Virus record (IMG/VR): IMGVR_UViG_3300037423_001636
Span: 13,169-77,168 of that record
Strand: one strand, 5' to 3'
Length of the DNA stretch: 64,000 nucleotides
DNA from: a virus
Taxonomy: Duplodnaviria > Heunggongvirae > Uroviricota > Caudoviricetes
Under the pieces are notes generated by a model. That model was not told where the DNA came from. It saw only the letters and a list, made by a program, of their open reading frames with translations, and did no database searches. A program made the translations under genes and the position numbers. Shown piece after piece: positions 2,541 through 29,451 of this stretch (position 1 is the first letter of the stretch; every line of letters begins with the position of its first letter).

Positions 2541-2894
2541 ATGCAACGAGCACCAACACAAGCGCAAACCACCCCGCACGCTACTTCCAACGGCTATCGC
2601 ATCCGTTTTCCAAAGGATAGTCAGTTGGCCACAATTCGCGGCTGGAACGGCAAATCATACGCCATGTCGGTTTCGATCTACGAAATCATTTCCGATGAGA
2701 CGAATTGGGGCTGCAAGATTCCCGGCTACAATGTGGGCGACAAGGTGAGGATGATTTCCGGAGTGGAGGAAAGTGAGCGTCTCGGGCATCATCCGACAAG
2801 AATGTGGCGGACTGTTTGCCGAATTGGAGCGGAGCATGCTGAGCACGTGGGGTTTCCCGTGACGGCACTGCGTCTGGTGAATGGGGGTGCGTGA
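2541..2894 (+). CDS. hypothetical protein
   Basis: ORF in gene string. Confidence 0.6.
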   Translation: MQRAPTQAQTTPHATSNGYRIRFPKDSQLATIRGWNGKSYAMSVSIYEIISDETNWGCKIPGYNVGDKVRMISGVEESERLGHHPTRMWRTVCRIGAEHAEHVGFPVTALRLVNGGA

Positions 2895-3421
2895 TGGCTG
2901 GCGGGGGCAATCAGACCACCTACGACGAGGGCACGCGCCGAGACGCTGAAGAAGTGCGCCGATTTGCGGCCCACATGGGCGTCGAACTCCCCGAACGCTT
3001 TGACGGCGACATGCACCCGGCCGCGCAGTGTATGAATGGGGCTCTGATGGATATCATTCAGCTGACGAATGCCCTTAGGAATATCGCGTTGACGCTGGGC
3101 GTAGATGACTACGAAAAGGCGCGAATGGTGGTTGAATCGGCTTTGGCCAGTCCATCAATCCTTCAACCTGCCGAAGCAGGCAATCTCTCCGTGAATACGC
3201 CCACAAATTCCTCTTCACTCGGCATCACTATCCCGGACAACGATCCCCGACCCCAGAAGCACGGCGGCCTGCGGCCAATCAAAGGATTGAAGCCCCGCTG
3301 CATAGACCCTTCCCATGAGCCACCCACACACATAGTGATCCCGCCCGGCTATGAATACGAGCATGTGTGTCCGAGCTGTGGATTTACGATCGTTCTGTGG
3401 GGGCACGATGTCACCTTGTAA
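2894..3421 (+). CDS. hypothetical protein with C-terminal CPSCG
   Basis: TGATG-coupled ORF. Confidence 0.6.
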   Translation: MAGGGNQTTYDEGTRRDAEEVRRFAAHMGVELPERFDGDMHPAAQCMNGALMDIIQLTNALRNIALTLGVDDYEKARMVVESALASPSILQPAEAGNLSVNTPTNSSSLGITIPDNDPRPQKHGGLRPIKGLKPRCIDPSHEPPTHIVIPPGYEYEHVCPSCGFTIVLWGHDVTL

Positions 3422-3443
3422 GGCTTGATTTCTGTTTTTTTAC

Positions 3444-3580
3444 GCTCTTGTATCACAAAACGGTCTAGGGGAATCTGTTCCGGCCGGATGGTCCTCCCTG
3501 AGCAGTCCACTGCTGCGTATAGTGGGGCGCGTGACCAGCGCAGTGATTTCGCAAGGTTCGAGCCCTCGCCAAGAGCACCA
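3444..3580 (+). tRNA. tRNA-Arg(CCG)-like RNA with about 60-nt expanded variable arm
   Basis: Acceptor GCTCTTG/CAAGAGC+ACCA; anticodon arm ATCTG-TTCCGGC-CGGAT; T-loop GGTTCGAGCCC; weak D-stem. Confidence 0.65.
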
Positions 3581-3689
3581 ATTTCTTTAACATTCTCTCT
3601 TGACTGGCGACACAATCTGTGCTCTATTCGCCTCCAACAGGTAGGCGCATGACCGTTCCGCCACTCAAACTAGATTCAGCTCTTTTACA

Positions 3690-3944
3690 GGAGTAAGTTT
3701 CAACTGTATTGCATAAGCGATACCGTTGGAGCGAAGCTCCAACAACAATTCCAGCCTTTGATCCGTGCGAAAAATCTGTGGTCGTAGCCCAGTACCGCAC
3801 GGGGAGGCTTACGAATGGACGGCGGTAGCGAATTGACCTTTCTATGGGCTAAACGACAGGTCAATAGGGAGCCGCACTGGAGAGTAGCACCATCCCAGTT
3901 TCTGACCACACATACGCCCGTGGCACGTCCAATCACTTTTTTTT
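3690..3944 (+). ncRNA. large structured non-coding RNA (unassigned)
   Basis: Many perfect helices plus loop-loop complementarity 3781-3791/3845-3857; ends in T8; 5' end uncertain. Confidence 0.6.
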
Positions 3945-3965
3945 GCCGCCCTCGGGTGCGAAAGC

Positions 3966-4051
3966 GAGCGGTGGGGGAATACGAGCGTCGGGAGAACCGA
4001 CGACGAGGCGCGACTGTGTGCCTGTTTCGAACACTCTCACCGCTCTTTTTT
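3966..4051 (+). ncRNA. structured RNA closed by a 12-bp helix and U-tract
   Basis: GAGCGGTGGGGG/CTCTCACCGCTC with inner CGTCGG/CCGACG hairpin, then T6. Confidence 0.45.
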
Positions 4052-4087
4052 GACAAATCCATTTCCTCCAGTCATGGTTGACCTACA

Positions 4088-4175
4088 GGCTCTTCAAGGA
4101 CCGTTTGTGACTAAACGGTCTCTGGCAAGCTGGACCGGAGCCGTCCTCACACGAGGACCAGCCATGGCTGGGGGA
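4088..4175 (+). ncRNA. small multi-hairpin RNA downstream of TTGACA (4050)
   Basis: GACCGTTT/AAACGGTC, GTCCTC/GAGGAC and CCAGC/GCTGG hairpins. Confidence 0.4.
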
Positions 4176-4188
4176 TTTCTTTGCGGTA

Positions 4189-4233
4189 TAGGGAAAACTC
4201 CCCATTGACGAGCCTCTGCTAGTCTGGTAGAGT
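4189..4233 (+). promoter_or_regulatory. palindrome + promoter element 1
   Basis: TAGGG-N6-CCCCA TTGACG N17 TAGAGT. Confidence 0.8.
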
Positions 4234-4242
4234 GTGCGTCTT

Positions 4243-4716
4243 ATGAATCCAGCCGCCTACATTCCGCTCACCCAATGCGTCAAGGGCAAAATCTATCGGC
4301 TTAATAGCCGCAATCTGGAGATCGGCGTGTATGACGGCAAAGAGGGATTCATCGGAATCCGGGAGAAGTTCGGCCGTTTCTATCTCTTCACGGAATATCA
4401 CCACGATCAGGGGCCGTCGGTTGGCACGGTCTATCCACTGGAGGTTATTGGCGAATTGCCAGCGACAATTGCCGTCAACGATAGAGAGATCCACGCATGG
4501 GGTGACGGTTGGTTCTGGGATATGGAGCTAGAAATCTGGAAGCCCATAGCTCGCCGCGATCTGAAAGAGGGTGAGGCTCAGCATGGAACGCGACAGGGAT
4601 TTGTGGACGAATTTGCCGGAACCAACACTCGGCTTGGCGACAATCAGTGGCCCTGTTTGCGCCGAAACGAGGCGCTATTCGACTACCTCAAAACGCTGGA
4701 GGCGCTTGGAGAATGA
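4243..4716 (+). CDS. hypothetical protein
   Basis: ATG 9 nt after -10; SRNL..GVYDG..GFIGIREKFG. Confidence 0.7.
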   Translation: MNPAAYIPLTQCVKGKIYRLNSRNLEIGVYDGKEGFIGIREKFGRFYLFTEYHHDQGPSVGTVYPLEVIGELPATIAVNDREIHAWGDGWFWDMELEIWKPIARRDLKEGEAQHGTRQGFVDEFAGTNTRLGDNQWPCLRRNEALFDYLKTLEALGE

Positions 4717-5675
4717 GTGAGCCCGCCACCAAGACCATCTGTATCGAGCGTCCTTCTTTCCTATCTCAAATGAGCCGGGAAACGAACTATCGCTACGAAG
4801 ACTTCGATATCTCCAAAGCCTCGCCACACATCCTCCGGGAGACGGTCCGCCATTGTCAGGAAGAATCTCTCGGCGGCCCCACCGCAATTGGGAACTACTT
4901 GAAGGCATCGCAGTGTCTGGACGGAGCTATTCTAGCCGTGGACCAGCGAGTGTCCCGAGACCTCGAAATCTCAACGGTAGCGGGCGATTTATCTCGACTC
5001 GCATTCCCGGCGGCCCAAATGGAGGTGCGATTCGCCGATCCTGATTTGCCCGCCATCCTGCTATGTCGAATCGACAACACTTCCGTGATTCACAAGGGAA
5101 TGAAGATGGAGGACGGAATGACTTTAGCGAACAAGGGAATCCTGTTCAGCGCCGACACGAAAAGCGGAGCCACTCTTACTCTTGCCCTCCCCGACACTCT
5201 GTGGCCGCAATATGTGAGCGGGCAATGGAGCGAGGACATGCGGCCAAAAATCTCTCAGGATATGGTCATGGAGGATGAAGAAGCGGCATGCATGAAATAT
5301 CTCGCGCTGCTCGCGGTAAAAGTGCTCGCTTACGCCAGCTGCTCTCACCTTGCGCCGACTCTGGTGACGACGAAAGCAGAGAAGAAAGCGGCGGGGATTC
5401 ATCCGAAGCACGTATTGCCACATCAGAAGACGTTTGTGGTGCGTTACTTGCCCCATGTGATTCGAGAAAAGCCGGAAATCGCCGAAGCACATGAGCCATC
5501 AGGTAAAACGCGCCGCTTCATGGGTCGCGCCGGCCGGGTCGTGTTCTATGAGCATGAGAGGTATACCCGAATGAGAGGGGTTTGGCAGTGGCAAGCGCCG
5601 ATTGCTCCCCCCGACGGCGTTCGCATCATTTACCGCGTGCGGAAAGCAGCGGGCACTCCAGTTAACCATCCATGA
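4713..5675 (+). CDS. hypothetical protein (320 aa)
   Basis: Long ATGA-coupled ORF. Confidence 0.75.
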   Translation: MSEPATKTICIERPSFLSQMSRETNYRYEDFDISKASPHILRETVRHCQEESLGGPTAIGNYLKASQCLDGAILAVDQRVSRDLEISTVAGDLSRLAFPAAQMEVRFADPDLPAILLCRIDNTSVIHKGMKMEDGMTLANKGILFSADTKSGATLTLALPDTLWPQYVSGQWSEDMRPKISQDMVMEDEEAACMKYLALLAVKVLAYASCSHLAPTLVTTKAEKKAAGIHPKHVLPHQKTFVVRYLPHVIREKPEIAEAHEPSGKTRRFMGRAGRVVFYEHERYTRMRGVWQWQAPIAPPDGVRIIYRVRKAAGTPVNHP

Positions 5676-29104: not shown

Positions 29105-29347
29105 GCGCGATTAGCTCAATTGGTTCCTGTCGGCGCTCCGCAAGGAGATACGGCAGGGGTGATAACCGACGAAGACTAGACGAGAGACCCCGATGCTAAG
29201 TCTCCATTGCAAGGGATACGACCCGGAGGGCACTCAGTCTAGCTAGTAAGCGGCGACTACCTAGAGCGTCATCGGTGGAGCGATCCACCATACACGATGA
29301 AGGTTGCCACAGGTCTGAAACGACTGGTTCGAGTCCGGCATCGCGCA
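29105..29347 (+). ncRNA. tRNA-Val(TAC)-like scaffold with three structured insertions (243 nt)
   Basis: GCGCGAT/ATCGCGC acceptor, TAGCTCAATTGGT..AGAGC D-arm, TCATC/GATGA stem with TACAC, GGTTCGAGTCC T-loop. Confidence 0.7.
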
Positions 29348-29361
29348 ATCCTTTTTTTTAT

Positions 29362-29451
29362 GCTCTGCCCCTGCTTGACAGGGGTAAACTGTCAACCTCT
29401 GTTGCAACAGGGGCGCAGCGTAGCGGGGCCGAATGCAACGCTAGAGCGCCA
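29362..29451 (+). ncRNA. CCA-ending cloverleaf with non-canonical arms
   Basis: GCTCTG/TAGAGC+GCCA closing three hairpins. Confidence 0.5.

What the first reader, a model, noticed from the sequence alone, without database searches (positions are those of the whole stretch)
3444..3580. tRNA-Arg(CCG) scaffold with a 60-nt, possibly pseudoknotted variable arm
Seen: 7-bp acceptor with encoded CCA, a 5-bp anticodon stem with loop TTCCGGC (U33, G37) and a T arm. About 60 nt occupy the variable position, folding as GGTC/GACC and CCACT/AGTGG, and loop CTGCG is complementary to downstream CGCAG. The D-stem is eroded. Known: long variable arms occur in Leu/Ser/Tyr/Sec tRNAs and are much shorter; bacterial tRNA introns lie in the anticodon loop. 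Inference: a tRNA used as a processing/stability chassis, or a decoy for anticodon nucleases, rather than a decoding tRNA.
Basis: partly seen in the sequence, partly recalled or inferred. Interest (0 to 1): 0.75.

Follow-up and report, generated by a model that had tools for sequence, protein, structure and literature searches.

The report
Expanded tRNA-shaped gene in phage
A 205-kb soil phage carries a 137-base gene with the ends, T loop and flanking signals of its own tRNA genes but about 61 extra unstructured bases in the middle, so it is probably cut out like a tRNA without working as a normal one.

Summary
The tRNA-like outer shell at 3444-3580 (+) is real. It has a perfect 7-bp acceptor stem, ACCA, a consensus T loop (TTCGAGC), and the same flanks (TTTAC before, ATTT after CCA) as the phage's roughly 30 tRNA genes. 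Such a shell occurs about 0.017 times per simulated genome, and the two flank motifs together have a chance of about 3e-6.

The interior is much weaker evidence.
- ARAGORN calls tRNA-Arg(CCG) only after about 59 nt (3493-3551) are deleted.
- With the shell kept and the interior shuffled, 20% of shuffles also get a call under some deletion, and 1.7% under a variable-position deletion.
- The insert folds no better than shuffles (z = +1.1).
- The cloverleaf is 25 kcal/mol above the minimum free energy fold.
- The T stem has six layers with an A.C mismatch.
- Rfam and my own tRNA model do not recognise the element.
- The phage already has tRNA-Arg(UCG), so CGG is covered.

No homologue turned up in viral, metagenome or genome collections, so covariation cannot be tested.

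Best reading: a tRNA-cassette derivative that is processed like a tRNA but does not decode, either a relic or a tRNA-like RNA. The phage also encodes a Ro60 (TROVE) protein, but this element lacks the Y-RNA motif. The scan had noted this stretch, and two other expanded tRNA-like elements, in this same genome before; none was on other DNA.

The parts
2891..3421 (+). Last gene (176 aa, orphan) of the upstream block of small + strand genes. Its stop codon lies 22 nt before the element.
   Evidence: ORF list and translation. The only hit among 5.8 billion proteins is itself. A gene is called here on a second assembly.
3429..3443 (+). T-rich leader ending in TTTAC, the same leader as the phage's tRNA cassettes.
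   Evidence: TTTAC lies directly before the 5' end in 7 of 29 phage tRNA shells, and TTTA[CT] in 12 of 29. Genome frequency of TTTAC is 0.0008.
3444..3450 (+). Acceptor stem, 5' strand (GCTCTTG).
   Evidence: Seven Watson-Crick pairs with 3570-3576. Pair probability is 0.97-1.0 in the ensemble.
3451..3472 (+). U8-A9, then a D-arm-like segment: TCAC / GGGG with an A:G mismatch, loop AAAACGGTCTA with G18-G19, then A26.
   Evidence: ARAGORN drawing after deletion. Pair probability is about 0 in the ensemble. In the alternative fold ATCAC (3452-3456) pairs with GTGAT (3543-3547).
3473..3489 (+). Anticodon-arm-like hairpin ATCTG / CGGAT with loop TTCCGGC (CCG, U33, G37).
   Evidence: Ensemble probability is about 0.01, against 0.49 or more in 17 of 19 phage tRNAs. 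The 18-mer has 62 exact matches in 185,579 prokaryote genomes, none inside a tRNA.
3490..3550 (+). Extra segment of about 61 nt between the anticodon-like stem and the T arm. It is unique in the genome and has no excess structure.
   Evidence: Deleting 3493-3551 or similar spans makes ARAGORN call tRNA-Arg(CCG). MFE z = +1.1. No repeat elsewhere in the genome. No Rfam match.
3551..3569 (+). T arm: six-layer stem GC-A-AGG / CCU-C-GC (A3553.C3567 mismatch) around the consensus loop TTCGAGC.
   Evidence: Alignment to my own tRNA covariance model and ARAGORN drawing. In the ensemble this stretch pairs instead with 3522-3539.
3570..3580 (+). Acceptor stem 3' strand (CAAGAGC), discriminator A, and encoded CCA.
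   Evidence: All 29 other phage tRNA shells also encode NCCA.
3581..3585 (+). Trailer ATTTC, the same trailer as the phage's tRNA cassettes.
   Evidence: ATTT directly follows CCA in 10 of 29 shells, and ATTT or TTTT in 21 of 29.

Best explanation
This is a derivative of one of the phage's own tRNA gene cassettes.

It keeps everything the tRNA end-processing machinery reads: a perfect 7-bp acceptor stem, a T arm with a consensus T loop, discriminator A plus encoded CCA, and the TTTAC leader and ATTT trailer of the phage's tRNA genes. Its body carries about 61 extra, unstructured bases and several stem defects.

Inferred mechanism: it is transcribed with the upstream block of small early genes, since only 22 nt separate the stop codon from its 5' end. 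RNase P and the 3' trimming enzymes then release a roughly 137-nt CCA-ended RNA. That cut also defines the 3' end of the upstream message.

It most likely does not decode CGG. It is either a recently disrupted tRNA gene that persists as a processing site, or a non-decoding tRNA-like RNA.

Shown: the anatomy, its non-randomness, and its membership of the phage's tRNA cassette set. Inferred: transcription, processing, and loss of decoding.
For: - Shell statistics: a strict shell occurs 0.017 times per simulated genome. The real genome has only this one and a tRNA-Ser-like gene. None of 120 random segments gives a call under the deletion scan.
- Flanks: they are identical in type to the 29 phage tRNA shells, with a joint chance of about 3e-6.
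- ARAGORN: after removing 3493-3551 it calls tRNA-Arg(CCG) at the default threshold. Of the phage's 19 called tRNAs, 7 reach no higher threshold and one does not reach the default.
- Evidence that it does not decode:
  - no ARAGORN or Rfam call on the intact sequence;
  - my own tRNA model gives 5.5 bits over the T arm and 3' end only;
  - anticodon stem probability is about 0.01, against 0.49 or more in 17 of 19 phage tRNAs;
  - the cloverleaf is -23.1 kcal/mol against an MFE of -48.1;
  - the six-layer T stem makes a 13-layer acceptor/T helix;
  - tRNA-Arg(UCG) at genome 167429-167504 already covers CGA and CGG.
- Context: relatives L025, L027 and L095 carry tRNA arrays upstream of the homologue of the gene at 4234-4716. 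A tRNA cassette at this spot therefore fits the lineage's layout.
Against: - There is no expression data.
- No homologue was found, so neither conservation nor decay can be measured.
- In the thermodynamic ensemble the T arm itself is mostly paired with 3522-3539. A fold with the T arm costs 5 kcal/mol, so RNase P recognition is not guaranteed.
- Phage genomes shed useless DNA. An intact shell with intact flanks argues for some retained function and against a plain relic.
- All checked invariant tRNA nucleotides are intact (U8, A14, G18, G19, A21, U33, G37, T54-A58, C61). That would also fit a working tRNA.
Confidence: 0.55

Rival explanations
1. It is a functional, non-decoding tRNA-like RNA whose 61-nt segment is an effector domain. 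It could be a client or partner of the phage's own Ro60 (TROVE) protein, or a decoy for tRNA-targeting host defences. It would work alongside the two other expanded tRNA-like elements of this phage.
For: - The phage encodes a TROVE-domain ORF at genome 163510-165018, inside its tRNA cluster, and has no Rfam YrlA match.
- Two other CCA- or tRNA-shaped elements, at window 29105-29347 and 29362-29451, carry the Rsr-binding-like motif GNCGAAN0-1G (motif from PMC4201824).
- The shell and flanks are intact in a compact genome.
- Y RNAs arose from tRNAs more than once, with different topologies (PMC4201824).
Against: - This element has no GNCGAAN0-1G motif.
- It lies about 147 kb from the TROVE gene, whereas YrlA genes lie within 4 kb on the same strand.
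- Its ends are in the acceptor stem, not in a Ro-binding stem.
- The insert shows no excess structure and no significant complementarity to the phage's tRNAs or to its own T arm.
Confidence: 0.2
2. It is a working tRNA-Arg(CCG) that tolerates a giant variable region.
For: - Its anticodon loop has U33, CCG and G37.
- All checked invariant nucleotides are intact.
- After deletion ARAGORN scores it like the weaker of the phage's tRNAs.
- CGG makes up 18% of Arg codons in the phage.
- Only 10 of 600 shuffled interiors give a call with a variable-position deletion.
Against: - tRNA-Arg(UCG) is already present.
- The 61 nt do not form an arm anchored at its base, and 8-15 nt would dangle before the T stem.
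- Anticodon stem probability is about 0.01 even in the deleted version.
- The acceptor/T helix has 13 layers instead of 12.
- Position 20 is U, not the A20 that E. coli ArgRS uses (from memory).
- With any deletion allowed, 20% of shuffled interiors also give a tRNA call.
Confidence: 0.1
3. The extra segment is an intervening sequence that is removed, giving a mature tRNA of about 77 nt.
For: Removing 59 nt restores a callable tRNA.
Against: - Bacterial and phage tRNA introns are self-splicing group I introns in the anticodon loop, and they are several times longer (established knowledge).
- No intron or ribozyme family matches here at E up to 10.
- No bulge-helix-bulge motif is visible at the boundaries by inspection.
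- The phage has no RtcB ligase.
Confidence: 0.04
4. It is a chance resemblance in an intergenic spacer and is not tRNA-derived.
For: - The whole-element fold has z = -0.53.
- There is no Rfam hit.
- No homologue was found.
Against: - The shell frequency is 0.017 per simulated genome.
- The cassette flanks have a joint chance of about 3e-6.
- It lies on the gene strand, in a gap between genes.
Confidence: 0.02

Closest known systems
The phage's own tRNA gene cassettes (about 30, genome 156.8-169 kb and 42.6 kb)
   Same: Seven-bp acceptor stem, encoded NCCA, T arm, TTTAC leader and ATTT trailer, + strand.
   Different: - 137 nt instead of 74-95 nt.
- About 61 extra bases.
- Stem mismatches and a six-layer T stem.
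- A canonical TTCGA T loop with G18-G19, whereas most cassettes have TGCGAGT-type loops and no GG in the D loop.
- It lies alone, about 50 kb from the main cluster across the genome ends.
Class II tRNAs (Leu, Ser, Tyr, Sec) with long variable arms, and allo-tRNAs (PMC5389517)
   Same: Extra nucleotides between the anticodon stem and the T stem. The acceptor/T helix length departs from 7/5.
   Different: - The variable arms of those tRNAs are far shorter than 61 nt and form one anchored stem-loop (from memory).
- Here 61 nt show no preferred stem.
- The 7/6 arrangement seen here is not among the described 8/4, 9/3, 8/5 or 9/4 forms.
- The longest uncalled tRNA shell in three related phage contigs is 102 nt.
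YrlA / bacterial and phage Y RNAs (Rfam RF02553; Chen et al. 2014, PMC4201824)
   Same: A tRNA-derived non-decoding RNA in a genome that encodes a Ro60 (TROVE) orthologue. [quoted passage not shown]
   Different: No RF02553 match, no GNCGAAN0-1G motif, not next to the TROVE gene, and a different topology with free ends in the acceptor stem.
The expanded tRNA-like elements of the same phage at window 29105-29347 and 29362-29451
   Same: Same genome, same strand, same early region, a tRNA-type acceptor stem, and a T-rich leader.
   Different: No sequence similarity. Those two carry the Rsr-like motif and this one does not. The 243-nt element has no encoded CCA.
tRNA-like 3'-end processing modules such as mascRNA of MALAT1 (from memory)
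   Same: A tRNA-shaped module at the end of a longer transcript, which would be cut by RNase P and so define the upstream RNA's 3' end.
   Different: That is a eukaryotic system. Nothing here shows that the upstream message depends on the cut. The Rfam mascRNA-menRNA family does not match.

Membership tests
Canonical tRNA (Rfam RF00005) | Seven-bp acceptor stem, discriminator base and 3' CCA | tested here: met
   GCTCTTG / CAAGAGC, then A and CCA. Pair probability is 0.97-1.0.
Canonical tRNA (Rfam RF00005) | Five-bp T stem directly abutting the acceptor stem, with a 7-nt loop T54-Psi55-C56-R57-A58 | tested here: inconclusive
   The loop TTCGAGC is met. The stem has either an extra C3569 or six layers with an A.C mismatch.
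Canonical tRNA (Rfam RF00005) | D arm and anticodon arm that form the cloverleaf | tested here: inconclusive
   The sequence can be drawn that way, but pair probability is 0.01 or less. 20% of shuffled interiors give a tRNA call under some deletion, and 1.7% under variable-position deletions.
Canonical tRNA (Rfam RF00005) | Variable region of about 4-24 nt and a score above the family threshold | tested here: not met
   61 nt lie between the anticodon stem and the T stem. There is no RF00005 hit and no ARAGORN call, even with introns allowed. My own tRNA model gives 5.5 bits.
Class II tRNA (long variable arm) | The variable region forms a single stem-loop anchored next to positions 44 and 48 | tested here: not met
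   No base-anchored helix forms. The GGTC/GACC helix has probability 0.000. The insert MFE is no better than shuffles.
Intron-containing tRNA (group I or bulge-helix-bulge) | Intron in or next to the anticodon loop, with a group I core or a bulge-helix-bulge motif | tested here: not met
   The insert lies 3' of the anticodon stem and is 61 nt long. No intron or ribozyme family matches at E up to 10. No RtcB is present. The bulge-helix-bulge motif was checked only by eye.
YrlA / Y RNA (RF02553) | A Ro60 (TROVE) gene in the genome | tested here: met
   PF05731 match of 45 bits in a 521-aa open frame at genome 163.8-164.5 kb.
YrlA / Y RNA (RF02553) | Within about 4 kb of Ro60 on the same strand, GNCGAAN0-1G near the 5' end, and a model match | tested here: not met
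   The element lies about 147 kb away, has no motif, and has no RF02553 hit.
This phage's tRNA cassette set | TTTAC-type leader directly before the 5' end and (A)TTT directly after an encoded CCA, on the + strand | tested here: met
tRNA pseudogene | Loss of expression or function, and decay relative to intact orthologues | not testable with these tools
   No orthologue was found and no RNA data could be had.

The most novel reading that the evidence does not exclude
The 137-nt RNA is a stable, functional tRNA-shaped RNA of a new topology. It would have free CCA-ended acceptor ends, with a 61-nt effector segment carried between the anticodon-like stem and the T arm. It would be one of a set of expanded tRNA look-alikes that this soil phage makes together with its own Ro60 protein, to manage or protect its unusual tRNA pool or to blunt tRNA-targeting host defences.
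Probability: 0.15. Interest if true: 0.75.

Novelty: new variant of a known kind. Interest (0 to 1): 0.4.

Why it matters
If the RNA is made and stable, it would add a third design to the short list of tRNA-derived non-decoding RNAs in bacteria and phages. It would do so in a phage that also carries a Ro60 orthologue, two other expanded tRNA look-alikes and about 30 tRNAs with a non-standard T loop. That combination makes the phage a good system for asking what phage Ro60 and tRNA mimics do. If it is only a disrupted tRNA gene, it is a small example of how tRNA cassettes decay and may be reused as processing sites. It also shows that tRNA finders miss such genes.

Tried and rejected
**Detection on the intact sequence**
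- ARAGORN with default settings, with introns allowed, and with relaxed thresholds made no meaningful call on the intact sequence.
- Rfam cmscan at gathering threshold and at E up to 10, over 3300-3750 and 3400-4300, found nothing.
- RF00005 over the whole genome at E up to 10 did not list the element.
- My own covariance model, built from 12 tRNAs of a related phage contig, gave only 5.5 bits.

**Homologue searches**
- DNA patterns in viral contigs found nothing.
- A metagenome scan gave one chance hit inside a high-GC coding sequence.
- Genome contigs gave no shell match. The 18-mer of the anticodon-like arm had 62 matches, none inside a tRNA.
- blastn against the phage collection found nothing.
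- The neighbouring proteins at 2891-3421, 3815-4081 and 4647-5675 are orphans.
- TerL, DUF932 and the 177-aa protein gave no close relatives in viral contigs.

**Origin and pairing of the insert**
- The insert is not a repeated or mobile element: there is no second copy in the genome.
- It has a 14/15 antisense match to tRNA-Leu(CAG), but this is not significant (p about 0.1).
- A second degenerate copy downstream (22/29 identity at 4110-4138) is not significant (p = 0.12).
- The element is not a recent duplicate of any phage tRNA.
- Complementarity of the insert to the T arm or to the 5' body is not significant (p = 0.075 and 0.27).

**Other leads**
- No pseudogene remnants of relatives' genes lie in 3400-4300.
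- ROOL does not match. One search was wasted on a wrong accession meant for GOLLD.
- The type I-F CRISPR-repeat resemblance that I recalled from memory has no Rfam CRISPR-DR support, so I dropped it.
- Complex prediction, structure prediction and the protein atlas were not used because they do not bear on an RNA element.

Full report
**Setting**

The window is bases 13169-77168 of a 205,168-bp virus record with direct terminal repeats. The element lies at 3444-3580 on the + strand. It starts 22 nt after the stop codon of the last gene (2891-3421) of a run of small + strand genes. A gene caller working on a second assembly of apparently the same phage called no gene between 3422 and 3814.

- a perfect 7-bp acceptor stem (3444-3450 / 3570-3576), then A and CCA;
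- a 5-bp hairpin ATCTG/CGGAT around TTCCGGC;
- a T loop TTCGAGC;
- a mismatched D-like arm with GG in its loop.

No standard tool recognises the intact element:
- ARAGORN fails, with or without introns.
- Rfam fails at gathering score and at E up to 10.
- RF00005 over the whole genome does not list it.

When I deleted every possible stretch in the middle, ARAGORN called tRNA-Arg(CCG) for 12 deletions, all ending at 3551-3555. The cleanest is 3493-3551, 59 nt. The same scan on 120 random segments of the genome gave no call.

**Which part is more than chance?**

The outer shell is. A strict shell means 7 Watson-Crick acceptor pairs, a TTCRA T loop with at least 4 of 5 stem pairs, NCCA, and at most 160 nt. 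It occurred once in 60 simulated genomes. In the real genome it occurs only here and at a tRNA-Ser-like gene.

The flanks are stronger evidence. The phage has about 30 CCA-encoding tRNA shells.
- TTTAC directly precedes 7 of 29 of them.
- ATTT directly follows CCA in 10 of 29.

This element has both motifs, and together they have a chance of about 3e-6 at fixed places. It is therefore a member, or a derivative, of the phage's own tRNA cassette set.

The interior is much weaker.
- With the shell kept and 3451-3552 shuffled, 41 of 200 shuffles still gave some tRNA call under some deletion.
- Only 10 of 600 did when the deletion had to sit at the variable position, but that restriction was chosen after seeing the data.
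- After deletion the candidate passes ARAGORN at 100% of the default threshold and no higher. Seven of the 19 called phage tRNAs reach no higher either, and one does not reach the default.

**The proposed variable arm and pseudoknot**

- The 63-nt segment folds to -17.6 kcal/mol, against -20.8 +/- 2.8 for dinucleotide shuffles (z = +1.1).
- GGTC/GACC, CCACT/AGTGG and CTGCG/CGCAG each have pair probability of 0.001 or less in the ensemble of the full element.
- About two 5-bp helices are expected by chance in 63 nt.
- The whole element has z = -0.53, and local windows over it have z of about +1.2.
- The cloverleaf with all four arms enforced is -23.1 kcal/mol, against -48.1 for the MFE.
- The anticodon stem has probability of about 0.01 in both the full and the deleted versions. 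It is 0.49 or more in 17 of 19 phage tRNAs.
- A fold that keeps only the acceptor and T arm reaches -43.0. It closes the interior with ATCAC (3452-3456) / GTGAT (3543-3547), giving a three-way junction without an anticodon arm.
- In the unconstrained ensemble the T arm pairs with 3522-3539, but that complementarity is not significant (p = 0.075).

The interior architecture is therefore open. A pseudoknotted arm has no support.

**Departures from a working tRNA**

My own covariance model was built from 12 tRNAs of a related phage contig. It aligned only the T arm and the 3' end (5.5 bits, E = 0.21). It read the T stem as six layers, GC-A-AGG / CCU-C-GC, with an A.C mismatch. The acceptor/T helix would then have 13 layers instead of 12.

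CGG makes up 18% of Arg codons. One shell that ARAGORN misses, at genome 167429-167504, has the loop CTTCGAA and is a tRNA-Arg(UCG). With Arg(GCG), Arg(UCU) and Arg(CCU), all Arg codons are covered without this element.

**Relatives**

No homologue of the element was found.
- Viral contigs gave nothing.
- Metagenome contigs gave one chance hit inside a coding sequence.
- 185,579 prokaryote genomes gave no shell match. The anticodon-arm 18-mer matched 62 times, never inside a tRNA.
- The phage collection gave nothing.

The insert is unique in the genome. It is not significantly related to the phage's tRNAs in either orientation.

The gene downstream (4234-4716) does have relatives at 50-58% identity. 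In three contigs (L025, L027, L095) that gene lies a few kb downstream of a tRNA array. L025 also shares a 427-aa protein at 70% identity; in this phage that gene sits next to the main tRNA cluster. A tRNA cassette at this position therefore fits the lineage's layout, and this one may be what is left of it. None of those arrays contains a look-alike, and the longest uncalled shell there is 102 nt.

**The Ro60 lead**

The phage encodes a TROVE-domain (Ro60) ORF inside its tRNA cluster. It has no RtcB, no CCA-adding enzyme and no Rfam YrlA match.

Chen et al. 2014 (PMC4201824) describe tRNA-like Y RNAs next to Ro60 in bacteria and phages, with a GNCGAAN0-1G motif near the 5' end. That motif is present in the two other tRNA-like elements of this window, at 29168 and 29428, and absent from this one. 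This element also lies about 147 kb from the TROVE gene and has the opposite topology. I therefore do not file it as a Y RNA, although a Ro60 link cannot be excluded.

**Verdict**

This is a real tRNA-cassette derivative with about 61 extra bases.
- Most likely it is processed like a tRNA but does not decode, as either a relic or a tRNA-like RNA (0.55).
- It could be a functional tRNA-like RNA with an effector segment (0.2).
- It could be a working tRNA-Arg(CCG) (0.1).
- It could be spliced (0.04).
- It could be a chance resemblance (0.02).

Without expression data or homologues, the choice between relic and functional RNA stays open.

Noticed in passing
genome 156823-168948 (outside the window); listed: Most of the phage's roughly 30 CCA-encoding tRNA genes have a non-standard T loop of the type TGCGAGT or TGCAAGT (G where Psi55 normally sits). 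The D loops that were printed lack the GG pair. ARAGORN misses about a third of them. Two uncalled shells in the related contig L027 have the same loop type. It may be a lineage-wide redesign of the tRNA elbow.
   Followed up: partly
genome 163510-165018 (outside the window): A TROVE-domain (Ro60-like) ORF of about 500 aa lies inside the tRNA cluster. No Rfam YrlA match exists anywhere in the genome. One GNCGAAN0-1G motif lies in the gap after the gene, at 165815.
   Followed up: partly
window 29105-29347 and 29362-29451: Both other tRNA-like elements carry the Rsr-binding-like motif of bacterial Y RNAs: GACGAAG at 29168 and GCCGAATG at 29428. The background rate is 0.0009 per nt. This supports reading them as Y-RNA-like partners of the phage Ro60.
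   Followed up: partly
window 3625-4185 (+): The stretch downstream of the element folds far better than shuffles on the + strand (-224.9 against -182.3 +/- 6.7 kcal/mol, z = -6.3) and much less so on the - strand (z = -2.2). The local minima are at 3660-3839, 3960-4079 and 4140-4259. It has no Rfam match and no ROOL match. It overlaps an 88-aa orphan ORF (3815-4081) with a good ribosome-binding site but an odd, Arg-rich product. It may be a structured RNA.
   Followed up: partly
genome 167429-167504, 161367-161441, 168756-168846, 161273-161360, 159940-160014: These tRNA shells are missed by ARAGORN even at relaxed thresholds. By their anticodon loops they look like Arg(UCG), Thr(GGU), Ser(CGA), a long-armed CAU tRNA and Pro(GGG).
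   Followed up: partly
L025 (GCA_040384425.1 contig JAWVGW010000951.1) 1-5500, and L095 1900-7550: Related phage contigs carry arrays of 20 or more canonical, CCA-encoding tRNA genes interspersed with HNH or DUF559 endonuclease genes. Downstream lie NAD-salvage genes (NAMPT, NAD synthase, NADAR) in L025.
   Followed up: no
window 4158-4233: A terminator-like hairpin, CCAGCCATGGCTGG followed by a T-rich tail, is followed by a near-consensus promoter (TTGACG, 17 nt, TAGAGT, with a TG extension) directly before the gene at 4234-4716.
   Followed up: no
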